A DNA stretch of 19,904 nt from assembly GCA_046761065.1 (NCBI GenBank), contig JBHIFL010000072.1, forward strand, positions 1 to 19,904, written 5' to 3'. Of this stretch, positions 1 through 15,460 are shown in pieces. The stretch's first letter is position 1. Each line of letters opens with the position of its first letter. Under the pieces are notes generated by a model that did not search any database, was not told where the DNA came from, and saw nothing but the letters and a program-made list of their open reading frames with translations. Made by a program: the position numbers and the translations under genes. This DNA is from Candidatus Heimdallarchaeota archaeon (lineage in GTDB: Archaea; Asgardarchaeota; Wukongarchaeia; Wukongarchaeales; JBHIFL01).

Positions 1-246
1 AGCTTTTCTACAAGACTAGGATATCCAATCAACATTAAACCTAGGATCTGGATGACTGTCTCAGAGTGGGTCGTATTTTTCAGCGGTGTTCCTTAGATAG
101 TTCGTCTTGATCGTGTTCAACCGCAATGCCAGAATCCCCGGTCCTTTTGATTTATTAACACGATTTATTACTACAATGCGTATGTTCCTTTTGAACCCCT
201 TAAAGAAATATTCAAAAAGTTAAAAAAAGAAATAATCCGTTGTTCG

Positions 247-1821
247 ATGTCCGGGAGAATGAGAGGAACCAGATTGAACAAGAATCAAACAGCCAGAACA
301 AATTCAATTGCTGTTTTTTGGGATATGGAGAACTGTGCTCCTCCACGAGGAATGAAAGGCCCGGATATTGTAGGGAATTTAAGATCGACGCTTCAAGACT
401 TTGGGGTCATTCGTCAGATTAATGCATACGCTGAACTCCGGCTCATCCCGAAAGACCTTCGTATAGAGCTCCAACGATCTGGCGTGCACCTAATTGATGT
501 TCCGTCACAGGAAAAAGATGCCGCCGACAAAATGATCATCTCAGACCTGATTATGTTTGCAGTCGACAATCCATCCCCCCAGACCCTTGCTTTGATTTCA
601 GGTGACCGGGATTATGCGTATCCTCTAGCCAAACTACGCTTACGGGGATATGAGGTCATCTTATTGATCCCACCAGTCGGGGCACACCCGACCTTACAAG
701 CTCAAGCTGATCGTATCATCGACTGGTATGATCTCGCTAAAGGGGAGCAACTCGAAGGGCCCTCAATTCCAGAAACCTTGGCAACGATCCAATTCGAACC
801 TCTTGTTGCTACCTTGCAGCATTTGAGAGATTTGGGGGAGTTAAATCCCCTCTTTTCACGCGTCGGAGAACATTTAGCCCTCAAATATCCTGCCCGATGG
901 AAAAAAGTAGGTGTCACCCGCCTTAAGGATTATATGGAAGAGGCTGCAAAAGCGGGTTTGGTTTCCTGGGGCGGAAACCCACCCCGCTACTGGGTCACCT
1001 TGGTACTTCCCGAGGCCGATGCGGAAAAACCTCAAGATATGACCATTACCGACGACTCTCGCTTTGGCCCGCTCCTTGTGATCCTCAAGAAAGCACAAAT
1101 GATGGGAATTGATGAACCCGAGATGGCCTGGATTGGCTTCCAACTTCGATCAATGATGCCTGCATGGCGGGAACAGCTGGGATGCAGTCGCCTAATGGAC
1201 TATATCGTAGAGGCGGAGGACGCCGAGTTAATTGAAGTCCGACATGAAGGTCTCCAACATTACGTGCGTTTGAAGTCGCCTGATGTGGTCGAAAGCGCGG
1301 GAACTATTGAACAAACAGATCTTGATCTCCTCGAACACGCTTTGGAGACCCTTCGACAGGATAAACTCCTCCCAACCGAGAAGATAGTGCTGGCAAGAAT
1401 GAGAGAACTCTCAGATGGGTGGACTCTGCAACGATCTCCATTCAATAATACCCGCCAGTTATTTCGGGCAGCAGCTAACCTGCGGGGGATCATTATTAAA
1501 GGAGAGCCCCCAAATCGCCTAGTCTTTCCTGCGCAAGAGGAGTATGAAGGGTTTGACCCAAATGACTGTTCGGTTGATCCCTTCTCCGAAGAACAATGGG
1601 CTGCAGTACAGCAATTCCTCAGAGCTAATCCCCATATAAAGGAGAAAGGACGATATTTCTTTGCCAAATACCTTCAGAAAGAAGGACCCACTCAGTTACG
1701 TGAGTTAAGCTTGGGGGAACTCATGTTACTGGTTCAATTAACTGCTAATAGAGGTTGGATTTTTTTCAAAGGCCTGTTCTTGCATGTGTCCACTGATCTG
1801 TTAGATAAAAACGAACCTTGA
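247..1821 (+). CDS. NYN-domain (PIN-like, limkain-b1/MARF1-type) ribonuclease with two tandem OST-HTH/LOTUS-like repeats and a C-terminal OHA-like region
   Basis: 524-aa ORF. NYN motifs IAVFWDMENC, KDAADKMI and LISGDRDY keep their acidic residues. Two similar ~70-aa repeats start FEPLV (~aa183) and FGPLL (~aa273). The C-terminal region contains LLPTE...DPFSEEQW...GRYFFAKYL...LSLGELMLLV. Confidence 0.85.
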   Translation: MSGRMRGTRLNKNQTARTNSIAVFWDMENCAPPRGMKGPDIVGNLRSTLQDFGVIRQINAYAELRLIPKDLRIELQRSGVHLIDVPSQEKDAADKMIISDLIMFAVDNPSPQTLALISGDRDYAYPLAKLRLRGYEVILLIPPVGAHPTLQAQADRIIDWYDLAKGEQLEGPSIPETLATIQFEPLVATLQHLRDLGELNPLFSRVGEHLALKYPARWKKVGVTRLKDYMEEAAKAGLVSWGGNPPRYWVTLVLPEADAEKPQDMTITDDSRFGPLLVILKKAQMMGIDEPEMAWIGFQLRSMMPAWREQLGCSRLMDYIVEAEDAELIEVRHEGLQHYVRLKSPDVVESAGTIEQTDLDLLEHALETLRQDKLLPTEKIVLARMRELSDGWTLQRSPFNNTRQLFRAAANLRGIIIKGEPPNRLVFPAQEEYEGFDPNDCSVDPFSEEQWAAVQQFLRANPHIKEKGRYFFAKYLQKEGPTQLRELSLGELMLLVQLTANRGWIFFKGLFLHVSTDLLDKNEP

Positions 1822-2258
1822 AGCCTGTGACGAAGGTTTCATGTCTTGTGGGAACCTACTTGGAAGTGACCGATGTCGACTTGGCTGTGTGCCAACAGGC
1901 AGAAGGGGTCCTATCCCCGCCCCCCCGCCCCGCAGTGGGAAATGGCTGGTTTTTGTGGATTGCAACGAGGTCGATACAGTCCTGGGCTACGATTAAACAG
2001 ACGACAAAAGTAGGCCAGATAGGTGGTAGTGCGAAGGTCACGACTGCTAAACCGAACCCGTACGCGACGGATCCGAAGACCAAAGTGATCTGTGTGTACA
2101 CCTACGATTGGACGGATGAAGCCGATGTCTGTCGCATCCGGAGCGAGCTGCGCGCCCTCGGGATCACGCAGAAGATCCCCTACAAGGCGGATGCTGATAC
2201 CTTACGGGACAAGTATCGGGTCACTGGCCATCGGCGGATCAGCAAGTATTATGAATGA
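1818..2258 (+). pseudogene. DUF1917 / Bles03 (C11orf68)-like protein; 5' part frameshifted (pseudogene or sequencing error)
   Basis: The C-terminal half has SAKVTTAKPNP, VICVYTYDWTD and LGITQKIPYKAD. The family motif SGKWLVFV is present only in another frame (1934-1981). Removing single extra bases near 1881, ~1918 and 1982 restores a continuous family-like sequence. Confidence 0.75.
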
Positions 2259-3133
2259 TTTTGACAAACGAAAAAAGGGTCTTTCTCGCGGGATTGGGGT
2301 TTTCGACGGGAAAAAAGGAAAACTACAAGGCCAAGCGCTCCCAATGTGGGGAACCAATCCCAACCCGGTATATCTGGGGTTTGAGTGGAGGGAGATGTCG
2401 TCGCGGGGGGGACCAAATGAATTTCTGGCCATGTGTGTAAATCCCACCAATTTTCTAGAACCGGGTAGGAAAAGATAATCCGTTCCTCTAACTCGATATA
2501 ATAATATGAGAATCCGAGTACGTCGCCGGGTGTAAGGTTGCGGAGGTCTTGTTCCCCATAGGAGATTGCAAGTTCGACATGCCACCCCGTGGTGTTGTGC
2601 CGCATCACTGCTTGGAAATCCAGCTCTGAATGCTCGGCTTCGAGGTCGATCTCATCATCAAATTCCCAACCACTTGCTTGGTCATCCACGTTTCAGTAAG
2701 CATCATACATTAAGAAATCCCATGGGTCTATGCGTTTGTCATCTTCACTCCCATTGGTCAAGTTGTAATCCCGAATACCCCCATCAGGGCACTGATCAAA
2801 GCTAATGGAGAGCTTATCTGCTGCGCCTTCCGGATAGAGGTTTTTGGATGGATCTGGCACATAGGTCCCGACATATAAGTGGCTTGTCTCGTACGCCCCC
2901 CAAGTGGTCAAGGGGAGTGGGTCAACGTCGGGGAGAGAGATGTACCCGTTGTCTGCATAATAGGCTGAAAGGAAAAGGGTGAGCGGTTCTCCTCCCCCAT
3001 ACTCTAACGGGTCGATCGTCCCATCAAGTAGCGGCGCCTCGGAGACAAAAGGCGCTTCAAGGATGGCCGTGCTCGCGTGGATCGGTATGGTCGCAGAGGC
3101 AAGGGCGGTAACGAGGAAGAGCAGAACCAACAT
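2249..3133 (-). pseudogene. Secreted, cell-surface acidic protein (CBM9/DOMON-like) with a PGF-CTERM-like C-terminal anchor, interrupted by one in-frame TGA
   Basis: ORFs 2693-3133 and 2249-2689 share a frame and read ...MYDAY*NVDDQ..., with the stop at 2693-2695. There is an N-terminal hydrophobic signal, APLLDGTIDPLEY and LYVG motifs, a Thr/Pro linker, then IPGWDW + TM helix + RRK. Confidence 0.7.
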
Positions 3134-3574
3134 ACATCGGTTTGTTTGTATCGTTATTCACATCACCTTCCTTTGTAATGAAGTGTCTAACATCCTAATA
3201 TCTTTAGGAATGACTCATTGATTCATGTTGAGTTGAGATCTTGCGAGTTTTCGATTCTCACGAAATTGTGTGAACGAAAGGGGCTTATGGGTGTTATTTG
3301 GACATAGCATCACCCATCAAATCATTAAACCTTAGAGCACTATACCACAAAAACATAAGTGTACAGCATTATACTCAACATCATCGAAGATGATTAATGA
3401 AAAACCAGGAACGAAAAAAGAAGACTCCACCTTTTTAGATCCATACGGGTAGTTCTGCCTTGTTTTTGTTATTTATGCATGGCGAAGAACGAGGCAAACT
3501 CGTTTTGGAAGGAGGTCTCCTTTTCTTAGTCATACCTACCAACACTGTCAAATCGAAATCTTCGTAGGGAAGGC

Positions 3575-4306
3575 TTATTTGGGCTGGAGGGACCGTTTCA
3601 GCTTTTTGGCATGGGTCAAAAGGTCGTGGATGGGCATTTCTTGGTATCCATTCGCCGCGAATTGGGAAAACTCGCGGAGTAACCGAGCTCGTTCGGGTTC
3701 CGGGAGCTTGGAGATATAGGCATCAAAACGAGCCCAATTGGCTTGAATATGGTGATAGTATTTGTGACAAATCGCTTTCGCATGTTGGATATCGTGATGA
3801 GTGGGGGCGCCGACTGTGAACCCTTGACACACAAACCCCATGCCCTCCACCGTTCGCAAGTGGAGGCCAAACGTCATGCGGTTGCGGAGCTTGGAGGCCT
3901 GGTGGTGGTATGAAAACGGATAAAAGACGCAGAGGTGGGGTCGGATGAGATAGATGAGGCACCGATTCGTGTGCGGATTCAAAAAGATGCAGTGCCCCAT
4001 TTTTTGGCGAAGCGCGAACCCGCACAGATTGTCGACGGAGCGAGGCACTTGACAGATGAACTTGGCGAAGGGGACGTTTTTCACCCGTGGCAGGTGATGG
4101 CGGGCGAACGTCCGCCATTCGCGGGCTAACCGGGCGAATTCGTGGGGGGGCAACGGGACTTGCTGGTCATAACGACAGCATCCCCCACATTGGACACACT
4201 CCCAGCGAAAGTGTTTCGGGAGGAAAATGTCGTAAGAAGCGGATTCAATCACGAGAACCGTTTCCAGTTCGTCGGGGGAGAGGTTCAATTGATCCAAGGT
4301 AACCAA
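3575..4306 (-). CDS. YkgJ-family cysteine cluster (CxxCxxCC) protein
   Basis: FRWECVQCGGCC, CIFL...CLIYLIRPHLCVFYPF and a downstream CQGF. GGAGG RBS at 4316-4320 on the minus strand. Confidence 0.85.
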   Translation of the reverse strand: MVTLDQLNLSPDELETVLVIESASYDIFLPKHFRWECVQCGGCCRYDQQVPLPPHEFARLAREWRTFARHHLPRVKNVPFAKFICQVPRSVDNLCGFALRQKMGHCIFLNPHTNRCLIYLIRPHLCVFYPFSYHHQASKLRNRMTFGLHLRTVEGMGFVCQGFTVGAPTHHDIQHAKAICHKYYHHIQANWARFDAYISKLPEPERARLLREFSQFAANGYQEMPIHDLLTHAKKLKRSLQPK

Positions 4307-4553
4307 CCATAGCCGCCTCCATTAGACGTGGAATAGGCTGCAGGGCGACCGCCATTTGCAGCCCGGCACTCAGTTCTATAATTCCAATACCATTTTGATT
4401 TAAAGGCTTCAACGGGAACTTCATTTCGCCAAGCATTTTGTAAGGTAATTTGGATCTCGCAGTTTTCAATTGAGTACTGCCTAGGAATTAACGCAAGGAA
4501 TTGTCACAGTTCCCACGCGCCCAAGGGATTTGCGCCCGTTACCCTCCTATTGA

Positions 4554-4964
4554 TATGAACTGCTCAAAGGTACCTCTCCCACTCACAAGGACACGGACCA
4601 CGACTTCTTCCCAGACCCCCAAGATTCCTTTCCCACTCGCTCCAACTTTTGGTTCGTGGCAGCGATCGTGTTGTTGTTCCTAGGCGTGAGGGCTAAATGG
4701 ATCCATCAATATTACATCTGAAAACGACAAGAAACTCGTAAACGCCGTGAACGGGTGGAATTGGCATCCTTTGCTCAAGGGTTTTGCCCGCGGTGTGGTA
4801 CGGTGCTTCATGCTATCCAATGCCCCCACTGCGGGGTCACTGGATACGTTGGGACGTGTCCGCAATGTCGCACGCTTATTCCGGATGTGGTCAAACAATG
4901 CCCTCACTGTGGCGCCAAAGGGTATTATGGGGAAATTTACCGGGAAAACTCGACTGAAAATTAA
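4554..4964 (+). pseudogene. Remnant of a membrane protein: DTDxD Ca-binding-like repeat + TM helix + four-CxxC zinc ribbon. Only the 69-aa zinc-ribbon part (4755-4964) is open.
   Basis: The frame of ORF 4755-4964 reads YELLKGTSPTHKDTDHDFFPDPQDSFPTRSNFWFVAAIVLLFLGVRAKWIHQYYI*KRQETRKRRERVELASFAQGFCPRC...CPHC...CPQC...CPHC. TGA occurs at 4719-4721 and 4551-4553. Confidence 0.6.
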
Positions 4965-5022
4965 AATCGGATTCGAAAACCCATTAGATCTCCAAATGGA
5001 GGAAGAAAATGATTCGAAGTAA

Positions 5023-5328
5023 TTATGCTTGATGAACTTCGTTCCTTCCTCTGTTCGGAACATGTGTTTTCCGGGAGCAGGTCCGCCAGCACGGGTGCCG
5101 GGTCCCCCCCCACTGGCGTGCCAGCTCGCCAAACACTCCCACCGCCCTGCGTCGCAAATCCTTGTCTCCGGCTTTCATATCCTCTCGGAAGATGGTCAGC
5201 AAGGGCGCAGGATCCTCCAACCAGCCCCCAAGGGTGACAAGAGAATCCAGTGCCTGTCCCCCAAGTCTCTCGACTACCTCGTCTTGTTCTTCTGGTGGGA
5301 GACGGAACCGCACCAGTGGATCTTCCAT
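5023..5328 (-). pseudogene. HEAT-repeat-like protein fragment, frameshifted at a G8 run
   Basis: MEDPLV...WLEDPAPLLTIF...DKDLRRRAVGVFGELARQWG. A one-base shift at the C8 run (5104-5111) gives DPAPVLADLLPE, a second copy of the W-x-x-DPAP-L motif. Confidence 0.45.
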
Positions 5329-5889
5329 CGCGCCCACAAGGGTCACGGAGCGAATTGCGCGCAAAAGAAAAAGCCCAAAAGAGTCAATCGCAGAAACTCG
5401 TCGAGAATGGGGTTCTAGGCGTTCACACGTGAATAGATCCCGCAATGTGGGATATTTGGTAATCCTCCAGCCCTTGTATTATAGAGCGATCGTCCTCAAT
5501 ACATTTATCACAAGGTTTCCTTCTCGAAATTGTGGCATGATAGAAGGCGTATTGAACTTGATAGGGTAAACCGTCGAGCAATCATTTCTCCCCCAAAAAT
5601 TGACACGAACACCTTCGTACAAAACTTGAAGGATTAAAAGTCAAATAAACAAGGCAATAACTGTCGGTTGGGATATAAAGACCCCCTTGAGCACGCAGAA
5701 TCAAGGGTTCTCTAAAACACTCTTTATTCACCGTTTTTAGCCATCATTAATTTTCGTCGGACATTTTGAATAGTTCGAGAAATTCGAAATATTTAAATGC
5801 TCCTAAGGGTTCGAACTTATCAAGTGATCCAGATAGTTTCAGTGACCTCTCCGGGTGTCATCTGGGGGCATACCGAAAGGAGGCGTACG

Positions 5890-7245
5890 ATGTCCAAGCG
5901 GTTAAGGAAAGTGGCCATGGAAGCCGTACACGAAGCAGAAACGGAAGAATTGTCAGTAACCACCCCGTATGCCTTCTATGGGTTTGCAAAAGACCCATTT
6001 AACCCGATGCTGCCGTTAGATGTGGGCGAAGAGGAGCAAGAGGAGTTCGAAAACCATTTTGGGTACGATTTTTTCAGGGGGTTCATAAAAAAGATCGGTC
6101 AAGCGTATAATGCCAAATTAACCGAATATCACAGGTCCTATCGCGTGAATAAACGTTATACGACAAGTCATATTCCGAACCTGATTTTATGTGGGCCGCC
6201 AAATTCAGGGAGGACAACGATCTGTAGGATCCTTGTGGCGGTCCTGAACACTGCTGAAATTCTGGGGCCAGGGGCGGCGCTTTTCACGAGTACGAACGAA
6301 TGGGCCACGATGGGGGCGTCCATTGCGGAAGGGATGCAGTGCTGGCTGGATCCGGCGTATAGAAAAGAAGATGGGCGACCCTCGCTAGTTGGGCTGAAAG
6401 TGTTATTTATCGATCAGGCAGACCCCATTCCTGACTTTCTCGCAATGATTCATGCGCAAATTCAAGATTTAGCGCGGGGACCGGTGATATTGATTCCTGT
6501 GCTAACGCCCATTGGGTATGATTTTCTGGCGGAATACTGTGAAAAGGATGAGGACACCGATCAGTTATTTCGGTTAAGCTCGGAATCGACCGAACGAGCA
6601 CCGCTGACAATCTGGGTAAGACGATGGGATGTCAAGAACCTCACCAAGATGTTACGAGAGCGATTACAGGTGACTGGAGGGAAACTAAGTCCGTTCTCGG
6701 AAAAATTGCTGGAAGAAATCAGTAAACACTCCCTTGGCTTGCCGGGACAAGCGATTAAGTTAGCCGAGCACCTGATGAGGCGTGCAGAATTGTATGGGTT
6801 GGAAAAATGTGATGAAGCACATTTGGAGATCATCATGAATAGTCTCGGGATAACGACGGCGGAGCAAATTTTAAAGGGGGCCTTAGAAGAGAGCCAAGTG
6901 GTCTTGACAAGTGGGTTTGAACTTCCAAGGAAGGAGAACGACGGAACGATCCCACTTGGGGAAACCCGGAAAAAAATCCTCGAGGTGATTCTCCGCCAAA
7001 TAACGATTTTTGGAGATGATGAAGTCCGAAGGGAGATGTTATTAGATCCAAAAGGCCATGAAGCCACGCAACGGACCATAGATGTGAAAAGCTCGACACT
7101 AAGCTATCATTTAATCAATTTGGTGAAGGAGGGGGTGTTGTCTGAATCACGATATCGAAAATCTGTGGCGTATCGTATTCGAAAACCGATTGAGGCGGCC
7201 TTGCAGATAATCCTTTCAAGCAGCATGCGACGGGTAGTGATGTAG
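5890..7245 (+). CDS. AAA+ family P-loop protein (ExeA/Cdc6-like architecture) with C-terminal ArsR-like winged helix; catalytic motifs degenerate
   Basis: The ATG at 5890 follows an AGGAGG RBS (the ORF track starts at 5797). N-terminal YAFYGFAKDPF, Walker A GPPNSGRT, Walker B VLFIDQAD, lid region SLGLPG, wHTH KSSTLSYHLINLVKEGVL. Confidence 0.75.
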   Translation: MSKRLRKVAMEAVHEAETEELSVTTPYAFYGFAKDPFNPMLPLDVGEEEQEEFENHFGYDFFRGFIKKIGQAYNAKLTEYHRSYRVNKRYTTSHIPNLILCGPPNSGRTTICRILVAVLNTAEILGPGAALFTSTNEWATMGASIAEGMQCWLDPAYRKEDGRPSLVGLKVLFIDQADPIPDFLAMIHAQIQDLARGPVILIPVLTPIGYDFLAEYCEKDEDTDQLFRLSSESTERAPLTIWVRRWDVKNLTKMLRERLQVTGGKLSPFSEKLLEEISKHSLGLPGQAIKLAEHLMRRAELYGLEKCDEAHLEIIMNSLGITTAEQILKGALEESQVVLTSGFELPRKENDGTIPLGETRKKILEVILRQITIFGDDEVRREMLLDPKGHEATQRTIDVKSSTLSYHLINLVKEGVLSESRYRKSVAYRIRKPIEAALQIILSSSMRRVVM

Positions 7246-7246
7246 G

Positions 7247-8149
7247 ATGGCTGCCTCTGTGGAACTGACCTTAGGTGGAGTCTTTGGGTTCCGCGGGCAT
7301 TCGGCCGAGGTATACCTTACTATGGAGGAGGCCATCAGGCGATTGCGCAGCAAAACGAACAAACCGCAGAGTAGGAACAACCAATTCATTCCCGGGATCG
7401 ATTATGTCTCGGAAGTGGAACGGTCGGCTCGGTTCCTGTTGGTGCGCTATTTGGAAGGGTATAAATCCGTCCAGAAGACGATAGTGGAAGAAGAAGACCA
7501 GCATTTTGTTGCAAAGCGGATCTGGGTATCTGTTCCGATCCATAAGCACCTGATTGATGGGGTGCTATTTGCGAAGGGAGCCATCCAGGACCGATGGTTC
7601 TTGGTCCAAGGCGAAGAGGTGGGGGAGGCCTTTGGGCGGTTAAATCGGTACTTGCGGGCAGTGGGGGGCGAGGTGAGCCTTTCCAGCTATGCGAGCCCCC
7701 AACAGGAAGCCCTGGCCCAAGACATTCTGGTCACCCTGTATTTCCAGGATCTCTACGGCGGGCGAATCCGCGGGATCAAAATCGCGGGGAAGCGGTATCC
7801 GGTGCTCGGAACGCGGGTGCGGTACTCAGGGGACTGGGACTTGAGGCGTAGCGAGTACGCCGATGAGATCAACGAGCGGCTGAGGGCGGGTGAGAAGGTG
7901 GAAAGCATAACAGTGGTGCCTTCGCGAGCCAGTGTCCCGGCGTCAGTGGGGCGAGAGGTGCCCACATTCACGATTCGAAGCGATCTACGCATTTCCTCGC
8001 GTAGCAAGATCCGGGATAAAACGGTCTGGGCCGCGATCGCGATTGCCAAGTTGTTGGAGGAGCATAATCGCAACCTCATTCAGGAGGTCTTCGAAGAGGA
8101 ACGGAGGCTGCGGTTAAGATCGGTGGTGTCCCTTGAGAAGTTCCTATAA
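7247..8149 (+). CDS. Hypothetical 300-aa alpha/beta protein; possible RdgC-like segment and PIP-box-like tail
   Basis: Long ORF starting 1 nt after the AAA+ stop, in the middle of the operon, with no TM segment. It ends in VVSLEKFL. Confidence 0.75.
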   Translation: MAASVELTLGGVFGFRGHSAEVYLTMEEAIRRLRSKTNKPQSRNNQFIPGIDYVSEVERSARFLLVRYLEGYKSVQKTIVEEEDQHFVAKRIWVSVPIHKHLIDGVLFAKGAIQDRWFLVQGEEVGEAFGRLNRYLRAVGGEVSLSSYASPQQEALAQDILVTLYFQDLYGGRIRGIKIAGKRYPVLGTRVRYSGDWDLRRSEYADEINERLRAGEKVESITVVPSRASVPASVGREVPTFTIRSDLRISSRSKIRDKTVWAAIAIAKLLEEHNRNLIQEVFEEERRLRLRSVVSLEKFL

Positions 8150-8165
8150 CGTGAGGGGTAATTGA

Positions 8166-9515
8166 ATGACAAAGGTGGTGCTCGAAGATTCCAATAGGGG
8201 GGAGTTACAGAGGGCTCCCTCCCTAGGGTTCGCTGCTCGGGGGGCTTGCGATGCGACTGTTAAGGGCGCCAACTCTTGGGGGAACATGGGCGAAGTCAAC
8301 CCCACCCCGGCACTCGTGCTTGCACTCAAGGACAAAATAGGGGGCACGGGGGCAGTTGAGTTGGGGGCGCAAGTGGAGCAGCTTACACAATCAATTCTCA
8401 GGTGGGGGTCGATTTCCCGGCCGTTTCCAATACAAACGATTGGGAGAACCCTAAGGCGGCTAGATTTCAAGCAGTTGCGAGAAGTTGAGCGAAATGGCAC
8501 CGTGTGGGATCTGTTAGGCGAGTTAGACCACGCGCAAGTTGAACCCTTGGAGACCACAATTTCGATCGAGATGTCTAAAACAAGGCGTCAGGTTTATCCG
8601 GCGCTAGCAAAGAAGAACCTTGTGGGGTTCGATGGCGCGTCGGTGGCACTCCGCACCAGCAGTGTCTCGATTGTATATGCCCGCGCCAGCTCTTACGGAT
8701 ACTCGCAACGAACCAATAATGAGGAACGGTTGAGCTTCAACAGCGGGGTCAACCGAATCTGGTGTGACATAGCACCGATCATTCCGTCTGTTCCGAACGC
8801 CTTAGTTACGGACGAGGGGCTGAGACAACTGGTGATGGAAGACTTTGAGAAGACAGTGAGCGGTCAGGATCAAATCCTAATGGCTGAAATTGGAGCGTTA
8901 GCCCGGGTAGAAGCGATGGCAGCAATGCTGTGTGTGGGAGAGTATGGGGAGCTTATAGACCTCATCTTAGTTGATGGGCCGATGTATGTGGCGCGAGATG
9001 GTTTTGAACCAAGCCTGATACGGGCTAATTACCTGAAGCAGGTGGGGATTCCACACATCAGCGTAGTGAAGAATTTAATTGCCTCGCCTGTCATGAAAGC
9101 CGCGGGCCAGAAACAGAATTGGACCGATTTTGCGTTTTTTGCGACGTCCTTACAACCCGGCGAGCGCAGCTGTGCCTTTCTAAGGCATGATGAAGGGAAA
9201 TATGTCATCCCCCATCTCGAGCTCAAGCGGGTCTTCTTTTACTACAAAACGTTACAAGGGGATCTTTTTCGCTATGAGGCACCACTGTGGGTCTGGGAGC
9301 TGGCACAAGTCCGGACAGAGCTCCTCGATTGTTGCATTGCTGATAGTCTCCTGGCGGGGGGCGGTTTTAGTTTTGTGTTGAGTCAGGCAGATCAATTTGT
9401 GCGGATTCGCAAGGATGTGCGGGGATTGTTGCGATCCCTTCAGCAGATGCGTTTGAGGGAACAGGGTGTAGCACCGAGCGAACCCTACGATCAGAAACGA
9501 TTCTGGTGGGTGTGA
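8166..9515 (+). CDS. nurA: NurA-family nuclease (RNase H-like fold) with long N-terminal extension
   Basis: LVGFDGAS, LILVDGPM, ISVVKN, LQPGERS, FFYYK...LFRYE and GFSFVLSQADQFVRI. Lies directly upstream of a HerA gene. Confidence 0.85.
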   Translation: MTKVVLEDSNRGELQRAPSLGFAARGACDATVKGANSWGNMGEVNPTPALVLALKDKIGGTGAVELGAQVEQLTQSILRWGSISRPFPIQTIGRTLRRLDFKQLREVERNGTVWDLLGELDHAQVEPLETTISIEMSKTRRQVYPALAKKNLVGFDGASVALRTSSVSIVYARASSYGYSQRTNNEERLSFNSGVNRIWCDIAPIIPSVPNALVTDEGLRQLVMEDFEKTVSGQDQILMAEIGALARVEAMAAMLCVGEYGELIDLILVDGPMYVARDGFEPSLIRANYLKQVGIPHISVVKNLIASPVMKAAGQKQNWTDFAFFATSLQPGERSCAFLRHDEGKYVIPHLELKRVFFYYKTLQGDLFRYEAPLWVWELAQVRTELLDCCIADSLLAGGGFSFVLSQADQFVRIRKDVRGLLRSLQQMRLREQGVAPSEPYDQKRFWWV

Positions 9516-9528
9516 TGGAGGTTGTCGA

Positions 9529-11322
9529 TTGCCGAAAGTGCCCCCTAAGGACGAAAGGCCAGTGAGATCGGCGCCGGTCCTCCTGGCATCCCGCGTAGGA
9601 GCCATTACCCCTATTTTCCCCCCCTGGCCCGCTGAAAAGGAGATTGGGTACGTATTGGCGGCGGGGGCGAAAGATGCGGTCCGCATCGGCGAAGATCAGT
9701 ACAGCACCGTATTGTGTTTGATCCCAATCCGGCACCGAACCGGGTTGCGTTTGGGGGACCCGGTTTGCATCTGGGATTATGTCGAGGGGGAGGTATTTGG
9801 CGGGGTCATTGCCGAAATCTCGCTGCCAAATATCACAAGGGAACATTTAGAGACCTACCTGTTTGAAGAGTTTGTCCCGACGCAAGAGTTGGTAGCAGTT
9901 GGCTCGATAGATTTTTTGGAGCAGCCAGCCATCATTGCGGTCAAGCTGTTTTGCACCTTGGAGCCAAAGACGTGGCAGAAAGGGCCAGTGGATTATACGC
10001 CACATCCGCGTGCGTCGGTGTTCCGTCCTGGCCCAAAACTTGTCCGGAAGCTGTTTGGGCTTGCAAAAAGCGGGGAAGGGATCTGTTATGGGGTGATTCT
10101 GCTTGGGAGGCAGCCCTATAAATTTGTGACGGGGAACGGCCACGGGACAGTTGATCTTGGGACGGAAAAGGAGGTTGGCGAGGAGCAGGACACGCAGTTG
10201 ACCTATTTTCCCTATATCATGCGGGAGCACTTACTGTATGAACATGAGTTCTCGGTTGGCACAACCGGGAAAGGGAAGACGGCTCGAAACAAGAATGACG
10301 TCAAACAATGGATCGATGTACTCCACGGGGCGGTAGTGATCCTCGACAAACACGGGGAATATGTCGATCTTGGGAAGACTCCGGTGGATCCTCCCAACTA
10401 CAGGGAACAAACGATCTGGGATGATTGCTCCTTTCAAGCAGCGGGGTTAAAAGACCTCAAAATCTTTAGATGGGCGTCTCGCCTCCCGGAGGAACCATCT
10501 CAGAAGGAAGAATATTTCACGGTTCGGTTTGGGGAGTTGGAAAGTTCAGATCTTTGCTATTACTTACCGGAATTAACCCCACAAGGGTACACGGTCTTAC
10601 CGAGGTTGATTGGCTGTTTCGCGCGAGAGTCCGGGCTGTTCCCAACATTGGCCAATTTTGAGCGATGGTTAAGACGGGCAGATCTACCGGAATCTGTCGC
10701 AGATCAACGCACAGTCAGTGCAGTGCTGAGGCGCCTAGCTATGACGTTGGAATCCCATATTTTTGACGGGTTAGATCTAGAAGACATCTCAATCGAAGAA
10801 TTAATCCAACCGGGGAGGGTGAGTGTGATCCCCTTGAATCACATTCTGGATGAAGACGTGGTCACCATCATCGCCTTTCATGTGTTGAATAAGCTCGCAC
10901 GCTACAAACTATCAGGGCAAGACAAGGCGAAAACGCCTGTCATGATCCTTGTGGATGAAGCTCACAATTACTTTCCCCGTTTGGTAGATCCTGAACGAAG
11001 GGCCTTTATCAAACGTCTTGTGCGGCGGGCCAAAACCATTTGTAAAGAAGGCCGTAAATTTCAGTTGCGGCTGCAATTCACGACCCAACGGCCAGAAGAA
11101 ATCGACATAGGCGTCCTTTCGATTGTCAACACGATCACGTTCTTTGGCTGTACGCCTCAGCAAGTATCTAGCCTAAAAAGAGCGATTGAGCTCCCAATCT
11201 CCCCGAACCAGCTGATCAATCTTCCGAAGCGAACCTCCGTCATCTACTCGAAAGATAATACCGATGCCCCAGTGACGGTTCTGGTGCCTTGGCCGACGCT
11301 GTGGCACCCGGTTCGAGTGTGA
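9529..11322 (+). CDS. herA: HerA-family (FtsK-HerA) DNA helicase/translocase with N-terminal HAS-barrel-like region
   Basis: Walker A VGTTGKGKT, ILDKHGEY, Walker B ILVDEAHNY, arginine finger KEGRKF and TTQRP. GGAGGT RBS at 9517-9522 precedes a TTG start. Confidence 0.9.
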   Translation: MPKVPPKDERPVRSAPVLLASRVGAITPIFPPWPAEKEIGYVLAAGAKDAVRIGEDQYSTVLCLIPIRHRTGLRLGDPVCIWDYVEGEVFGGVIAEISLPNITREHLETYLFEEFVPTQELVAVGSIDFLEQPAIIAVKLFCTLEPKTWQKGPVDYTPHPRASVFRPGPKLVRKLFGLAKSGEGICYGVILLGRQPYKFVTGNGHGTVDLGTEKEVGEEQDTQLTYFPYIMREHLLYEHEFSVGTTGKGKTARNKNDVKQWIDVLHGAVVILDKHGEYVDLGKTPVDPPNYREQTIWDDCSFQAAGLKDLKIFRWASRLPEEPSQKEEYFTVRFGELESSDLCYYLPELTPQGYTVLPRLIGCFARESGLFPTLANFERWLRRADLPESVADQRTVSAVLRRLAMTLESHIFDGLDLEDISIEELIQPGRVSVIPLNHILDEDVVTIIAFHVLNKLARYKLSGQDKAKTPVMILVDEAHNYFPRLVDPERRAFIKRLVRRAKTICKEGRKFQLRLQFTTQRPEEIDIGVLSIVNTITFFGCTPQQVSSLKRAIELPISPNQLINLPKRTSVIYSKDNTDAPVTVLVPWPTLWHPVRV

Positions 11323-11337
11323 AGGGAGCTAAGCATC

Positions 11338-11344
11338 TTTTTTT
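11338..11344 (+). terminator. Probable oligo-T archaeal terminator after herA
   Basis: T7 run 15 nt after the herA stop, followed by a long AT-rich intergenic region. Confidence 0.4.
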
Positions 11345-11742
11345 AGGTTAGGTCGCATCAGGTCAAAAATTCTTCAACAAGCACGTTAAATTTAGATGGA
11401 TATAGAGATAGCTTGTTTTCGTTGGGGGTGAGATAAACTCGGGCATTGGTACTACCAGAGCAGGGTCTAGGCCTAATTTTGAATAAAACCGTTGGTTCTC
11501 TCTAATTAAGGTAATTAATCACTCTGTATTCTTTAATGGAACTCCTGTGTTTATAATATTAGATAATTCTAACAAATTCCTGCTTTGATAAATTAACCTC
11601 TAATAAGAATAGGATCATTGCTTTTAAATACAGATATTTTGAAAAGAAAGGCTTTTAAGGTGTTAAGAAGTCCCTTATAAGACTCGAATCAAGGTTCGGG
11701 CTTTATATAGTAAGCGATATCCGAATCAAAAACGGCGAAATG

Positions 11743-11782
11743 CTTTTATAAAAAGAATCATAATCTTTTATAATCAGAATCA
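11743..11782. repeat. Imperfect 18-bp direct repeat, 22-bp period
   Basis: CTTTTATAAAAAGAATCA (11743-11760) vs CTTTTATAATCAGAATCA (11765-11782), 16/18 identical. Confidence 0.6.
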
Positions 11783-11926
11783 CCTAAATGGTACATACAT
11801 GCGAGCAGGACTTAAAATTTCCCTTTTAGTCGCCTCACAAAAGATGAAGGAAGGTGAAGTCGAGGTTAGTAGAAGGGGGAAGCAAGCCCGTAGCAATGGA
11901 GTACCAGCCCAGGGGGTTGTAAAAAA

Positions 11927-12403
11927 ATGGGTAAACAAAGGCTCATCTCTTTCAAATGTCCGGAGGCGTATCTTGAAGGGTTAATAGAATTAGTTCGGGC
12001 AGGTATCTATCCAAGCCGTTCCGAAGCTATTAGAATAGCAATTCGAGACTTGTTACGGCGGGAATTATGGGAGGTGATAGAGCGAAAAAGTGTAACAGAA
12101 TCGATTAGTTCTTCAACATACCCCTCAAATCCACATTACACCCAAACTCCGCAAGTAAAGACGTTTAAACAACCTTTCGACACTGAAGAACCGATCAATA
12201 GGGAACGTCCTTACGGAATAACAACTTCGATACTGGATGCTATTTGCAAATTCCAGCGAGACCTACAGCAAACCTTAGATTTTCCTGTTCGAGAAAAAAG
12301 CAATTTTGGGATCGACGCCTCTTCAATAGATCTCAAGGATACAGAATTATTTAATAGAGGGCACCCCATAAACAAGCCCAGCACGCGTGGCTACGCAAGA
12401 TAG
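11927..12403 (+). CDS. Ribbon-helix-helix (CopG/Arc/MetJ) regulator, CdrS-like, with ~110-aa C-terminal extension
   Basis: N-terminal RLISFKCPEAYLEGLIELVRAGIYPSRSEAIRIAIRDLLRRELW, followed by an S/T/P-rich tail. Confidence 0.8.
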   Translation: MGKQRLISFKCPEAYLEGLIELVRAGIYPSRSEAIRIAIRDLLRRELWEVIERKSVTESISSSTYPSNPHYTQTPQVKTFKQPFDTEEPINRERPYGITTSILDAICKFQRDLQQTLDFPVREKSNFGIDASSIDLKDTELFNRGHPINKPSTRGYAR

Positions 12404-12636
12404 GTGCCTCTTTAAGATTATCACATTCATTCAAGTTATGACTGGATTTCTAGTTTTGTCTTGGGCATGTTCCCACGTAGATCGTTACTCCGATTTGTCA
12501 GACGGTCGAGAGGGGCTTTTTAGAACTCGTTAGAACTAGTTATTTCTCGTAAATGATTATTTTCTTCGCAATTTTCTTATATTTCATTTTGATTAAATTG
12601 GAATGATTCATATTAAGAAAACAGATATAAAATGCC

Positions 12637-13296
12637 TTAAAGAAAAGGATTTGAACGTTTTTCATGAGAGATCGTAGTTGAAGGGCCGTGCCCTGGAGCG
12701 ACTCGAGTTTCCTCCGGTAAGGTGAACAACCGGGTCCTTATCGAAGTAATCAGGGTCTTAAAATCCCCTCTGGGGAAATCCGTTCGACCAATCGATTGCA
12801 TAAATAAGCAATCACCTGAGAAGACCACTCCAAGTTCAGCTGCATAGAAACTTAGGCCTCCTGGGGAGTGGCCAGGGGTCCAGAGAGCTGTTAAGGCAAG
12901 GTTCCCGACTGAGATTTTTTCACCATCCGCAATAAAAAGGTCTGGTTCTTGGAACTTAGGTGGCTCAAAGCCCCACTGGGCCGCCGCTGGATGAGCGGCT
13001 TGAAGGATGGGGTCTTCTGCTTTGTGCATAGCCACCTTACAACCAGTCATCTGGCGTACTTCCTCTATTCCTTGAATATGATCGAAATGGCAGTGGGTCA
13101 GAAGCGCGTATTTCATATTAAGCTCATGGAGTCGCACAAATTTTAGTAGTTGAAGCGGGATTGCCCCTCCATCAATTAGCACGGCTTCGCGAGTCGGGAG
13201 ATGGGCAATTAAATAACTGTTCGTCTGAAGGGGACCTAAAACAGTGGATTTCACTAGAAAATCCTTGTCTGAGAGAGACACAATCGTATTCTCCAT
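12637..13296 (-). CDS. MBL-fold metallo-hydrolase (glyoxalase II / YcbL-like)
   Basis: GPLQTNSY, THCHFDH, TPGHSPG, FSGDCLF, SIGRTDFP, PGHGPSTTI..EKRSNPFL. Confidence 0.92.
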   Translation of the reverse strand: MENTIVSLSDKDFLVKSTVLGPLQTNSYLIAHLPTREAVLIDGGAIPLQLLKFVRLHELNMKYALLTHCHFDHIQGIEEVRQMTGCKVAMHKAEDPILQAAHPAAAQWGFEPPKFQEPDLFIADGEKISVGNLALTALWTPGHSPGGLSFYAAELGVVFSGDCLFMQSIGRTDFPRGDFKTLITSIRTRLFTLPEETRVAPGHGPSTTISHEKRSNPFL

Positions 13297-13684
13297 ATAA
13301 CTAAGCCAGGAATGCGTTTGAGTAAATTATTCCTATTTATCTTTTCTTGTTAACGAAATTATTGTGAATAAAATCTTATCAATAGGAATCTGTTAATGGT
13401 TGATTATAATTGAATTGTTCAATTTTCCAATTGATAAAAGGCTTCATTATATAGCAAAGACATTCTAGTAAGGAATAATTGACTTCTGATCTTGTTGTGT
13501 TATACGTTTCTTGCATACTTTGCTTAATAGGAGTCGCTACTTTAATGTGATAAAGCCTTCTGGGTGTTAAAGGCTGTGTAGGAGAGATTCCATGTAAAGG
13601 AGGGAACTCAATTCGTCATCCTGTTCGTCCCTAAGTCTTCATTTTAATTTCTTCATATCACACCAGAAACTACACAAGAAAAGG

Positions 13685-13746
13685 CAAAAGGTTTAATATA
13701 TGGCATTTTATCAACGAAGGTTTATCAAAGTTAAATAGAATGGTGA
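13685..13746 (+). promoter_or_regulatory. Putative archaeal BRE/TATA and RBS of pepD
   Basis: Purine-rich CAAAAGG then TTTAATAT (13692-13699). GGTGA at 13742-13746 lies 6 nt before the ATG. Confidence 0.5.
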
Positions 13747-13752
13747 TCCCCT

Positions 13753-15186
13753 ATGACCAATAAAGAACTGCCGAGTTTGGAGCCAACACTCGTCTGGAAG
13801 TACTTTAATGAGTTGAGGAAAATCCCGCGGTGCTCAAAAAACGAAGAAAAAGCGGCTGAGTTTGTAGCAAATACCGCAGAGCAGTTTGGCTATGAAACCA
13901 TTATCGATCACATGAAGAACGTCCTCATTCGGATCCCTGCATCCCCCGGTTACGAGGAGAAAGCCCCGACCTGCCTACAATGTCATCTAGACATGGTTTG
14001 CGAGAAGACATCTGATGTAGAACATGATTTTACCCGGGATCCTATTGAGGCATACATTGATGGAGAGAACGTGAAGGCCCGGGGAACAACCCTTGGAGCC
14101 GATAACGGCATCGGCGTGGCGGTCCTGCTTGCCCTCCTCGAAGAAAGAGAATTCAACCACCCGTTCTTAGAGTTCCTCTTCACTGTAGACGAGGAAACTG
14201 GGCTGACAGGCGCTTTTGGGCTTCACGAGGATTTTCTTACGGCTCAACGGCTCATCAATTTAGATAGCGAAGAAGAAGGGACGGTGTACATAGGCTGTGC
14301 CGGTGGTGGGGGCACAGAACTCTACTTACCAGTAAAGAAAGTGCCAGTAGAAAGCGTTGGTCTCCTTATTAAGGTTCACAAGCTTAGAGGAGGGCATTCC
14401 GGCGTGGATATTCATTTGGGTCGTGCTAACGCCATTAAATTACTGGCTCGCGCCCTTGACCGACTCATGAAGTCCGAAACGTTGGAATTAGCACGTTTTT
14501 TTGGCGGGAGTAAACGAAATGTGATCCCTCGCGAAGCAGAGGCGCTTGTCACTGTTAAAGACATGAGCAAGGCAAAGGAAATCCTGAAAAAGAGCGAGGA
14601 AGACTTCAAACTTGAATATGAGGGGAAGGAAGACATGTTAGAGATCGAAGTGAAAGAAACTCCGGTGAAGGAGGTGTTAATTGACGGGGAGAAGGTCATT
14701 CAACTCCTATTAGCCTTGCCACATGGTGTCATTTCCATGAACGCGCATATTGAGAACCTTGTGGACACTTCCACCAACCTTGCAGTGGTGAACACCACAG
14801 AAGAAACGGTGGAGATCTTCCAAAGCACTAGAAGCTCCATAATCCCTGCCTTGGAGGATGTGAGAAGGAGGGTAGAAGCAACTGGAAACCTTGCTGGGGC
14901 AAAAGTGGTCCAGACAGGCAGTTATCCTGCGTGGAGACCTAACCTCCAATCACCTTTGCTGAACCTAGCCCGGGAAACGTACCAAGAGATGTATGGCAAA
15001 AGTCCAGAAGTGAAGGCTATCCATGGGGGCTTAGAGACGGCCGTGATAGGCAGCAAGTACCCTGGGATGGATATGATCTCCATAGGAGCCACATTAAACT
15101 TTCCCCACACTCCTGACGAGCAGATTCACATTCCTTCTGTTACAAAATTCTATAATTATCTGCAAAGGCTATTGCAAATGCTCTGA
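13753..15186 (+). CDS. pepD: Aminoacyl-histidine dipeptidase (peptidase M20C)
   Basis: IPRCSKNE, HLDMVCEK, TTLGADNGIG, DEETGL, NLDSEE, GGHSG, IHGGLE, HTPDE. Confidence 0.93.
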   Translation: MTNKELPSLEPTLVWKYFNELRKIPRCSKNEEKAAEFVANTAEQFGYETIIDHMKNVLIRIPASPGYEEKAPTCLQCHLDMVCEKTSDVEHDFTRDPIEAYIDGENVKARGTTLGADNGIGVAVLLALLEEREFNHPFLEFLFTVDEETGLTGAFGLHEDFLTAQRLINLDSEEEGTVYIGCAGGGGTELYLPVKKVPVESVGLLIKVHKLRGGHSGVDIHLGRANAIKLLARALDRLMKSETLELARFFGGSKRNVIPREAEALVTVKDMSKAKEILKKSEEDFKLEYEGKEDMLEIEVKETPVKEVLIDGEKVIQLLLALPHGVISMNAHIENLVDTSTNLAVVNTTEETVEIFQSTRSSIIPALEDVRRRVEATGNLAGAKVVQTGSYPAWRPNLQSPLLNLARETYQEMYGKSPEVKAIHGGLETAVIGSKYPGMDMISIGATLNFPHTPDEQIHIPSVTKFYNYLQRLLQML

Positions 15187-15417
15187 ATGATTATTGGTAA
15201 AAATTATAAGTTAATTGATAATGTCAAACCCATAACATTTCATATAAGGAAAATATGATGGGCTAATGGATTATCTTCTTTATGTGTGTTACTTTTAAAT
15301 TTTCTAATTTGTGTCTGAAATCTCTACGTATTATTCAAAATTACCATTTACTTTTGAAATCTCCTCGGCGATTAAATAAGACAATCGCTCATTATCTTCG
15401 ATGTGAGCTCTTCCACA

Positions 15418-15433
15418 CAAAAAACTTTTAAAT
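15418..15433 (+). promoter_or_regulatory. Putative BRE/TATA of the dpp operon (likely near-leaderless transcript)
   Basis: CAAAAAAC followed by TTTTAAAT (15426-15433), 27 nt upstream of the ATG at 15461, with no RBS visible. Confidence 0.55.
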
Positions 15434-15460
15434 AGAAATTTATCCAAATATCCCAAAAAA

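What the first reader, a model, noticed from the sequence alone, without database searches (positions are those of the whole stretch)
5890..11322. Four-gene operon (degenerate AAA+-wHTH / unknown / NurA / HerA) without Mre11-Rad50: candidate undescribed DNA-processing or defence system
Seen: four co-oriented genes with gaps of only 1, 16 and 13 nt, RBS-like sites before three of them, no convincing gene for >500 bp on either side, and a T-run after herA. Known: the housekeeping archaeal module is usually herA-mre11-rad50-nurA, while paralogous HerA ATPases paired with nucleases form anti-phage systems such as Sir2-HerA and DUF4297-HerA. Inference: Mre11/Rad50 are replaced here by a DNA-binding AAA+ scaffold and an unknown protein, which could sense or target DNA and load the NurA-HerA resection machine. 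That would be a dedicated foreign-DNA degradation or specialised recombination module. It also sits next to a decayed, accessory-looking region.
Basis: partly seen in the sequence, partly recalled or inferred. Interest (0 to 1): 0.85.

Follow-up and report, generated by a model that had tools for sequence, protein, structure and literature searches.

The report
Extra NurA-HerA operon with novel partners
An uncultured Asgard archaeon carries, besides its ordinary DNA-break-repair genes, an extra DNA-cutting enzyme and motor (NurA-HerA) in one operon with two undescribed proteins, and soil ammonia-oxidising archaea pair the same two proteins with a different nuclease and helicase, so they look like a portable control or targeting unit for DNA-degrading machines.

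Summary
Four co-oriented genes lie at 5890-11322 with gaps of 1, 16 and 13 nt. There are GGAGG-type sites before g1, nurA and herA, and a T7 run after herA.

NurA and HerA are divergent but keep their catalytic residues. g1 is an AAA+-like protein with a C-terminal winged helix. Its Walker A Lys, Walker B Glu and sensor-2 Arg are all replaced. g2 (300 aa) matches no known family.

The bin also holds a canonical mre11-rad50-nurA-herA operon and a second nurA-herA pair, so this is a third paralogue. The order g1-g2-nurA-herA, followed by an RHH gene where the contig reaches that far, is kept wherever the contig extends across the cassette in related Heimdall/Hod-type assemblies.

This HerA subfamily was found only in Asgard archaea, and its upstream partners vary: none, one g1, two g1, or wH+JAB. 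The g1-g2 pair recurs in Nitrososphaeraceae before a Cas4/Dna2-like Fe-S nuclease and an SF1B helicase.

I read g1-g2 as a portable adaptor or regulator for processive nuclease-motor pairs. Defence versus specialised repair stays open. I found no described system that matches. Earlier notes of this scan report NurA-HerA paralogues with winged-helix partners in other archaea.

The parts
5790..5797 (+). TATA-like element (TATTTAAA), about 93-100 nt upstream of the g1 start; putative archaeal promoter of the operon
   Evidence: Read from the sequence. This is inference only; no transcript data are available.
5890..7245 (+). g1: 451-aa AAA+-like protein with a C-terminal ArsR-like winged helix. 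Walker A is GPPNSGRT (Lys to Arg), Walker B is LFIDQAD (no Glu), and GLPG stands where I place sensor-2 (no Arg). The N-terminal Y-x-F-Y-G-F-x-x-D-P-F motif is conserved.
   Evidence: Alignments are. The profile against PDB hits RuvB at E 3.7e-4 plus an ArsR wHTH. Foldseek on a low-confidence model finds RuvB, ORC/Cdc6 and RFC. Pfam and NCBIfam give nothing over cut-off. GGAGG lies at 5879-5883.
7247..8149 (+). g2: 300-aa protein of an undescribed family that always lies directly after g1. Conserved residues include Q158, K182, D198, R200, E207 and E219, plus a C-terminal L-E-x-F motif.
   Evidence: There is no hit in Pfam, NCBIfam, PADLOC or the PDB profile search. It has 6 close homologues among 5.8e9 proteins and distant relatives by profile search.
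8166..9515 (+). nurA paralogue (449 aa) with a long N-terminal extension; catalytic D156, E249 and D270 and a C-terminal Asp at the His position are conserved
   Evidence: Pfam NurA scores 34.9 bits. It is 40% identical to the G001 orthologue.
9529..11322 (+). herA paralogue (597 aa, TTG start); Walker A GTTGKGKT, Walker B LVDEAH, and the EGRKF and TQRPE motifs are intact
   Evidence: DUF87 scores 37.2 bits and PADLOC HerA 69.7 bits. The best PDB match is 4D2I at E 9e-10. Alignment, tree.
11338..11344 (+). T7 run 16 nt after the herA stop; putative archaeal terminator
   Evidence: Read from the sequence; inference.
11927..12403 (+). RHH (CopG-type) gene of 158 aa. It follows the cassette after a 343-615 nt AT-rich spacer in all 5 related loci that extend that far. 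It is a possible fifth component or regulator.
   Evidence: Pfam RHH_1 at 2.9e-9. The same neighbour appears in L013, L015 and L017 (Pfam RHH_1) and in L014 (same position, homologous by tblastx).

Best explanation
This is an accessory, third NurA-HerA nuclease/translocase module of a Hodarchaeales-related Asgard archaeon. It is encoded in one operon with two lineage-restricted partners.

Shown:
- NurA and HerA keep their catalytic residues, so a working HerA hexamer/NurA dimer that threads and degrades DNA is expected.
- g1 has an AAA+ core with all three hydrolysis signatures replaced, plus a winged helix.
- g1 and g2 are inherited together as a pair. The pair is portable: in Nitrososphaeraceae it precedes a Cas4/Dna2-like Fe-S nuclease and an SF1B (Upf1/Dna2-like) helicase instead of NurA-HerA.

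Inferred:
- g1 is a non-hydrolysing DNA-binding scaffold that perhaps still binds nucleotide.
- Together with g2 it recognises a DNA site, end or structure, and recruits, loads or licenses a processive 5'-3' DNA-degrading motor.
- The downstream RHH protein probably regulates the unit.

The biological role is not settled. I put about 40% on action against foreign or aberrant DNA (defence-like), about 35% on a specialised chromosomal repair or recombination route, and the rest on something else.
For: - Operon anatomy and ribosome-binding sites.
- Catalytic residues kept: NurA D156/E249/D270; HerA Walker A/B and R509.
- g1 motif changes are invariant in its clade and recur in Nitrososphaeraceae as GPECSGRST.
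- The order g1-g2-nurA-herA is kept in 8 loci at 59-81% g2 identity.
- Profile search finds distant g2 relatives, and a g1-type gene precedes each in all five whose contigs were read (hhalign of g1 against the L040 protein gives probability 99.2).
- In 17 Nitrososphaeraceae species representatives the pair sits before a nuclease with the invariant C...CxxCx5C pattern and a PADLOC Cas4 hit at 2e-5, and before an SF1B helicase matching Upf1, Dna2 and IGHMBP2.
- A canonical Mre11-Rad50-NurA-HerA operon exists elsewhere in the bin and in G001, G002, G021 and G104.
- The HerA subfamily is a well-supported clade (99/98) apart from the Mre11/Rad50-linked HerA.
- Upstream partners turn over within the subfamily: none, g1, g1+g1, g1+g2, or wH+JAB.
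Against: - No physical interaction, DNA binding or activity has been shown.
- The g1 and g2 structure models are unusable (pLDDT 50 and 39).
- g1-family proteins are common in Asgard genomes without any nuclease neighbour, so g1 could be only a transcription factor.
- The Cas4-like call for the Nitrososphaeraceae nuclease rests on a weak hit plus motifs read by eye. Pfam and PDB sequence searches were negative.
- Contig C72 is a GC outlier in its bin (47% against 42%). The 'same genome' statement therefore has a binning caveat, though this is offset by the same pattern in four other genomes.
Confidence: 0.55

Rival explanations
1. It is a dedicated anti-virus/anti-plasmid defence system. g1-g2 sense invading DNA and unleash NurA-HerA to destroy it. 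The Nitrososphaeraceae cassette would be the same system with a swapped effector pair.
For: - g1-g2 are very sparse and occur in two phyla, which implies horizontal transfer.
- Effector swapping and fast turnover of upstream partners, including a JAB protein, are typical of conflict systems.
- Cassette GC lies in the top 0.8% of the bin.
- Precedents exist: HerA-based defence systems (PMC11291478, PMC11472057) and a CRISPR-linked nurA-csm6-herA in Thermoproteales (PMC3396285).
Against: - No PADLOC system matches, and no defence gene, integrase, transposase or flanking repeat lies next to the window cassette.
- No relatives were found in viral contigs.
- Within the closest Nitrososphaeraceae clade the flanks are syntenic housekeeping genes.
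- The NurA-HerA subfamily is present in all sampled members of several Asgard families, which fits vertical inheritance.
Confidence: 0.35
2. It is a lineage-specific cellular repair or recombination route, a second or third end-resection pathway. g1 and the RHH protein are merely transcription regulators of the operon, and g2 is an extra structural subunit.
For: - Inheritance within clades is stable, next to metabolic and housekeeping genes.
- Multiple NurA-HerA paralogues are normal in Asgard and Thermoproteales (PMC13748450; PMC3396285).
- g1-like AAA+-wHTH proteins occur widely without nucleases.
- Both partner machines (NurA-HerA and the Dna2-like pair) are classical 5'-3' resection enzymes (established knowledge).
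Against: - A plain regulator would not be expected to travel together with g2 to a different nuclease-helicase operon in another phylum.
- The conserved loss of all three ATPase signatures under purifying selection suggests a scaffold role more than a simple repressor.
- The distribution is extremely sparse for a cellular pathway.
Confidence: 0.3
3. It is a CRISPR-adaptation-linked NurA-HerA, like the nurA-csm6-herA cluster of Thermoproteales.
For: There is a precedent in PMC3396285. The g1 winged helix gives weak PADLOC hits to Csa3 and Csx3 (E 0.002-0.008).
Against: No CRISPR array, cas gene or CARF/csm6 gene occurs in the window or in the related loci. The weak hits cover only the generic wHTH.
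Confidence: 0.03
4. The adjacency is chance, or a gene-calling or binning artefact, and the four genes do not form a functional unit.
For: Contig C72 is a GC outlier in a bin with 8% estimated contamination.
Against: The same order and spacing occur in 8 independent assemblies. The g1-g2 adjacency is conserved down to 21-25% identity, and all four proteins are under evident purifying selection.
Confidence: 0.02

Closest known systems
Canonical archaeal HerA-NurA end-resection complex (herA-mre11-rad50-nurA operon; Sulfolobus HerA PDB 4D2I)
   Same: It has a NurA-domain nuclease with the D-E-D catalytic set next to a HerA (DUF87) ATPase with intact Walker motifs. 4D2I is the best solved-structure match.
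   Different: There is no mre11/rad50 here. Identity to the bin's own Mre11/Rad50-linked pair is only about 20%, and the HerA forms a separate clade. HerA is about 70-100 aa longer and NurA has a long N-terminal extension. Two extra partner genes are present.
Stand-alone or CRISPR-linked NurA-HerA paralogues (bacterial Deinococcus/Thermus pairs; nurA-csm6-herA of Thermoproteales, PMC3396285)
   Same: It is an additional nurA-herA pair without mre11-rad50, vertically inherited in a lineage, alongside a canonical copy.
   Different: There is no csm6 or CRISPR array, and the partners are an AAA+-wHTH pseudo-ATPase and a novel protein. This HerA subfamily was found only in Asgard archaea.
HerA-effector anti-phage systems (SIR2-HerA, DUF4297-HerA; NCBIfam HerA_antiphage)
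   Same: A HerA-family ATPase is paired with a nuclease-type effector. The best NCBIfam and PADLOC hits are partial matches to HerA models that include the anti-phage ones.
   Different: The scores are far below the equivalog cut-offs (51.8 against 800 bits). The effector is NurA, not SIR2 or DUF4297, and no defence context is present.
Orc1/Cdc6, RuvB, ExeA-type AAA+ proteins with a C-terminal winged helix, and the 'archaeal ATPase' (ATPase_2) families, as relatives of g1
   Same: The architecture is an AAA+ core, a helical lid and a winged helix. The profile and Foldseek matches are RuvB, ORC/Cdc6 and RFC. The N-terminal YGF..DPF motif resembles that of ExeA-like ATPases (from memory, not tested).
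   Different: No Pfam or NCBIfam model reaches its cut-off. Walker A Lys, Walker B Glu and sensor-2 Arg are all replaced.
Dna2 / AddB / Cas4-type Fe-S nuclease with an SF1B helicase, as the alternative partner of g1-g2 in Nitrososphaeraceae
   Same: The nuclease has a C...CxxCx5C cysteine pattern and PD-(D/E)xK-like motifs. The helicase matches Upf1, Dna2 and IGHMBP2.
   Different: It is split into two genes. The nuclease is not recognised by Pfam or by PDB sequence searches. This partner is not present in the window itself.

Membership tests
NurA nuclease family (PF09376) | A NurA domain over the Pfam gathering score, with the conserved catalytic Asp/Glu/Asp (plus His/Asp) set | tested here: met
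   The score is 34.9 bits against a cut-off of 21. D156, E249 and D270 are invariant, and a C-terminal Asp aligns with the His of the canonical copy.
HerA/FtsK-type ATPase (PF01935 DUF87) | The central HerA domain over the Pfam cut-off, with Walker A GxxGxGK[ST] and Walker B hhhhDE | tested here: met
   The score is 37.2 bits against 23.2. GTTGKGKT and LVDEAH are invariant across the subfamily. The HAS-barrel N-domain was not tested structurally.
Canonical Mre11-Rad50-HerA-NurA repair module | Genomic linkage to mre11 and rad50 | tested here: not met
   No Metallophos or SMC-type gene occurs in the window. The linked set lies on contig C1.
Canonical Mre11-Rad50-HerA-NurA repair module | Orthology with the Mre11/Rad50-linked HerA and the NCBIfam equivalogs (NF040819, NF040937) | tested here: not met
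   The scores are 44.7 and 46.9 bits against cut-offs of 970 and 800. The HerA forms a separate clade at 99/98 support, and the own Mre11/Rad50-linked HerA lies outside it on a long branch.
HerA-based anti-phage systems (SIR2-HerA, DUF4297-HerA) | HerA equivalog match and an adjacent SIR2 or DUF4297 effector | tested here: not met
   HerA_antiphage scores 51.8 bits against 800. No SIR2 or DUF4297 gene is present, and PADLOC gives only partial HerA hits.
CRISPR-associated nurA-csm6-herA cluster | A csm6/CARF gene between or beside the pair, and a nearby CRISPR array | tested here: not met
   No CARF, csm6 or cas hits over threshold, and no repeat arrays in 3000-13000.
Orc1/Cdc6 family (for g1) | An AAA+ domain with functional Walker A/B and sensor-2, a Cdc6_C winged helix, and a Pfam/NCBIfam match | tested here: not met
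   No family reaches its cut-off. Walker A has Lys to Arg, Walker B lacks Glu, and the sensor-2 position reads GLPG. Only the general architecture resembles it.
RdgC (proposed for g2 by another first-stage note) | A sequence match to PF04381 | tested here: not met
   hmmscan of all 7 g2 homologues at E up to 10 lists no RdgC hit. The PDB profile search is empty. The fold could not be tested because the model has pLDDT 39.
Defence system as an experimental category | Protection of a host against virus or plasmid | not testable with these tools
   This needs a heterologous or native infection assay.

The most novel reading that the evidence does not exclude
g1 (pseudo-ATPase AAA+-winged helix) and g2 form a previously unrecognised, horizontally mobile DNA-sensing adaptor. 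It would define a new family of archaeal conflict systems with interchangeable processive effectors: NurA-HerA in Hod/Heimdall-type Asgard archaea, and a split Dna2/Cas4-like nuclease plus SF1B helicase in soil Nitrososphaeraceae.
Probability: 0.3. Interest if true: 0.8.

Novelty: new variant of a known kind. Interest (0 to 1): 0.6.

Why it matters
NurA-HerA is the archaeal long-range end-resection machine. How it is targeted and restrained is an open question, and a 2026 review states that no Asgard NurA has been characterised (PMC13748450). This locus gives a concrete, testable case: a paralogous, apparently active NurA-HerA with two dedicated partner proteins, in the Asgard branch (Hod/Heimdall) named closest to eukaryotes.

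The cross-phylum reuse of the g1-g2 pair with a Dna2-like nuclease/helicase pair links two analogous 5'-3' resection machines through one adaptor. If that holds biochemically, it would show how processive nucleases are licensed, either for immunity or for repair. It would also give a function to a large uncharacterised Asgard/TACK family of AAA+-winged-helix proteins.

Tried and rejected
- AlphaFold2 of g1 and g2 from shallow alignments gave pLDDT 50 and 39. The g2 model was not searched. The g1 model gave only generic AAA+ matches with TM 0.25-0.38.
- Complex prediction of g1+g2 gave no verdict (score 0.00). This counts neither for nor against binding.
- Pfam, NCBIfam and PADLOC gave nothing for g2 and only sub-threshold hits for g1. 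The PDB profile search for g2 was empty.
- The protein-atlas leads were not informative. DUF4747 and DUF6731 were each carried by 11% of one cluster's members, and otherwise only unnamed clusters appeared. hmmscan did not back them.
- The RdgC-like and PIP-box idea for g2 has no sequence support. The C-terminal L-E-x-F motif is conserved but is internal in the distant relatives.
- g2 as a decayed g1 paralogue: hhalign probability is 0.3%.
- A scan of GTDB species genomes with the g2 alignment found nothing beyond the window's own genome. The wide g2 alignment was too diverse to scan with.
- Viral contigs held no g2 relatives.
- Rfam, tRNA and repeat scans were negative. There are no mobile-element borders.
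- A PADLOC scan of neighbouring genes was negative, except for a JAB protein in a Ranarchaeia locus.
- PDB sequence searches for the Nitrososphaeraceae nucleases were negative.
- The CxxCxxCC gene lies near the cassette in both the window and L044, but the two copies show no similarity. It is a coincidence.

Full report
**1. Observation**

The window holds four co-oriented ORFs on the + strand:
- g1 at 5890-7245
- g2 at 7247-8149
- nurA at 8166-9515
- herA at 9529-11322, with a TTG start

An in-frame ATG at 5797 precedes g1, but conservation among homologues begins at the Met of 5890. GGAGG lies at 5879-5883.

The gaps between genes are 1, 16 and 13 nt. GAGGGG precedes nurA and GGAGG precedes herA, while g2 has no site of its own. 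A TATTTAAA element lies at 5790-7, and a T7 run at 11338-44 follows herA.

Upstream, 4307-5889 holds only short overlapping ORFs with no family hit. Nothing upstream of about 5600 is conserved in relatives apart from two very short matches. Downstream lies a 604-nt spacer of 36% GC.

**2. The parts**

NurA:
- It scores 34.9 bits on Pfam NurA.
- Aligned with its orthologues and the genome's other two NurA proteins, D156, E249 and D270 are invariant. A C-terminal Asp sits where the canonical copy has His.

HerA:
- It scores 37.2 bits on DUF87.
- Its best solved relative is Sulfolobus HerA 4D2I, at E 9e-10.
- GTTGKGKT, LVDEAH, EGRKF and TQRPE are invariant in the subfamily.

Both enzymes therefore look active.

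g1:
- No family reaches its cut-off.
- A profile of its homologues hits RuvB (E 3.7e-4) and an ArsR winged helix in the PDB.
- Foldseek on a poor model (pLDDT 50) returns RuvB, ORC/Cdc6 and RFC.
- Walker A reads GPPxSGRTT, with Lys replaced by Arg; this is invariant in the clade.
- Walker B is hhhhD[D/Q/H]AD.
- Where I place sensor-2, by analogy with the GDAR motif of Orc1/Cdc6 (from memory, not tested here), it reads GLPG.

g2:
- It matches nothing in Pfam, NCBIfam, PADLOC or the PDB.
- Its model is unusable, at pLDDT 39.

**3. Same genome, other loci**

The bin has a canonical mre11-rad50-nurA-herA operon on contig C1. It also has a second nurA-herA pair on C9, beside CTP synthase and Rio2. 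The window cassette is therefore a third paralogue.

One caveat applies. Contig C72 is the second most GC-rich contig of the bin (47% against 42%). The cassette, at 52%, lies in the top 0.8% of 5.4-kb windows, and the bin has an estimated 8% contamination.

The conclusion does not depend on the bin. G001, G002, G021 and G104 all carry this HerA subfamily, and each also has a NurA gene on the same contig as Rad50.

**4. Conservation of the cassette**

g2 has only six homologues among 5.8 billion clustered proteins, at 59-81% identity. g1 has the same narrow set. Wherever a contig reaches across the cassette, the order is g1-g2-nurA-herA.

An RHH gene follows after a 343-615 nt spacer in the window and in L013, L014, L015 and L017. 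Source names place these assemblies in Heimdall/Hodarchaeota.

Synteny breaks immediately upstream of g1 in all relatives.

**5. The NurA-HerA subfamily**

Orthologues of this HerA were found only in Asgard archaea:
- Hod/Wukong, at 52-59% identity
- 'Ranarchaeia', at about 50%
- Njordarchaeales, at 35-38%

The next relatives are haloarchaeal HerA_C-type proteins at E 1e-18. In the tree the subfamily is monophyletic (99/98). It lies apart from the bin's Mre11/Rad50-linked HerA and from the C9 HerA, both on long branches.

The genes upstream of nurA vary across the subfamily:

| Lineage or locus | Genes upstream of nurA |
|---|---|
| Njord genomes | none |
| G001 | one g1-type gene with an intact Walker A Lys, no g2 |
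| L094 | two tandem g1-type genes |
| Ranarchaeia locus (L095) | a small winged-helix-like gene (read from the sequence) and a JAB gene |
| Window clade | g1 plus g2 |

**6. The g1-g2 pair elsewhere**

A profile of g2 searched against 1.84 billion representatives found distant relatives at E 3e-11 to 2e-4. In all five whose contigs were read, a g1-type gene lies directly upstream. hhalign of g1 against the L040 protein gives probability 99.2. That protein again carries Arg in Walker A.

In Nitrososphaeraceae, 17 species representatives carry the pair, which is 17 of 201 sampled genomes. The operon there has four genes:
- g1
- g2
- a 445-550 aa nuclease
- a helicase of about 440-465 aa

The evidence for the nuclease is as follows:
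- The 550-aa form gives a PADLOC Cas4 hit at 2e-5.
- It has four invariant cysteines in the C...CxxCx5C pattern.
- A GRxDxI motif occurs in both forms, followed by QIK in the 550-aa form and DWK in the 445-aa form.

The helicase is of the SF1B AAA_11/AAA_12 type and matches IGHMBP2, Upf1 and Dna2.

The closest subclade keeps syntenic housekeeping flanks. g2 shows no similarity to g1, NurA or HerA.

**7. The wider g1 family**

The g1 profile hits 90 of 301 Asgard genomes. The hits are often tandem pairs of 380-460 aa with weak AAA and HTH Pfam matches and no nuclease neighbour. g1 is thus a degenerate member of a large uncharacterised AAA+-winged-helix family.

**8. Interpretation**

Two points are shown:
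- This is an accessory, apparently active NurA-HerA pair.
- It is inherited with a pseudo-ATPase DNA-binding protein and a novel protein, and these two travel as a pair to a second, analogous nuclease-motor pair in another phylum.

I infer that g1-g2 recognise DNA and recruit, load or license a processive 5'-3' degrading machine, with the RHH protein as regulator.

The role is open.

For a conflict or defence role:
- The distribution is sparse and crosses phyla.
- Effectors are swapped and partners turn over.
- The GC content is anomalous.
- HerA-based defence systems and a CRISPR-linked nurA-csm6-herA are precedents.

For a cellular role:
- No defence neighbours, mobile-element marks or viral relatives were found.
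- Inheritance within lineages is stable.

**9. Known or new**

No PADLOC or NCBIfam system matches. Five paper searches found no description of this cassette. A 2026 review states that Asgard NurA proteins are uncharacterised.

Earlier notes of this scan, which are unchecked AI notes, report NurA-HerA paralogues tied to small winged-helix proteins in Bathyarchaeia, Jord/Freyarchaeia and soil ammonia oxidisers. The present case fits that theme, but with a different partner architecture. I did not test whether those loci are homologous to this one.

I class the locus as a new variant of a known kind.

Noticed in passing
window 247-2258: A 524-aa protein carries an NYN RNase domain plus an OST-HTH-associated (OHA) domain. 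It is followed, with overlapping stop and start, by a 146-aa Bles03-like protein. Another NYN protein lies about 3 kb from the related cassette in L094.
   Followed up: no
G000 contig C9 (L019 8431-11450, minus strand): A second nurA-herA pair of the bin has no mre11/rad50. It sits between CTP synthase and a Rio2 kinase, with a DUF460 protein nearby.
   Followed up: partly
window 1-19904 (contig C72): The contig is the second most GC-rich of 127 contigs of at least 8 kb in the bin (47.3% against a genome value of 42.0%). It is an outlier only along the GC axis of tetranucleotide space. It may be mis-binned or a compositionally distinct region.
   Followed up: partly
L014 4219-5562; L053 8044-9690; G451:C64:6541-7572: Single assemblies show broken copies. 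g1 is split into three ORFs in GCA_012975005. The Nitrososphaeraceae nuclease has an in-frame stop in L053. One g2-like gene carries a TAA. These could be assembly errors or decay.
   Followed up: no
L095 4706-5698 (Ranarchaeia): Upstream of the orthologous nurA-herA lie a 141-aa protein, winged-helix-like by eye, and a 182-aa JAB/MPN protein with the HSHPGE motif (PADLOC JAB 2e-7). JAB is a regulator type known from CBASS-like systems.
   Followed up: partly
L086 8222-10708; L090 6956-9447; L092 947-3443; L093 6265-8759: A large uncharacterised Asgard family of AAA+-winged-helix proteins is related to g1. Its members often occur as tandem pairs and were hit in 90 of 301 sampled Asgard genomes.
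   Followed up: partly
L044 4680-5741: An N6/N4 DNA methyltransferase gene lies directly upstream of the divergent Nitrososphaeraceae g1-g2-nuclease-helicase cassette. It was seen in only one lineage, since L062 is the same organism at 99.7% identity.
   Followed up: partly
window 12637-13296 (minus strand): A metallo-beta-lactamase-fold gene lies two genes downstream. Its orthologues in L014 and L015 carry weak Pfam Anti-Pycsar_Apyc1 hits, and an MBL gene in L095 carries an unmarked (stronger) one.
   Followed up: no
window 15461-17377: A family-5 solute-binding protein matches the Pfam model in two stretches. Another first-stage note suggests a circular permutation.
   Followed up: no
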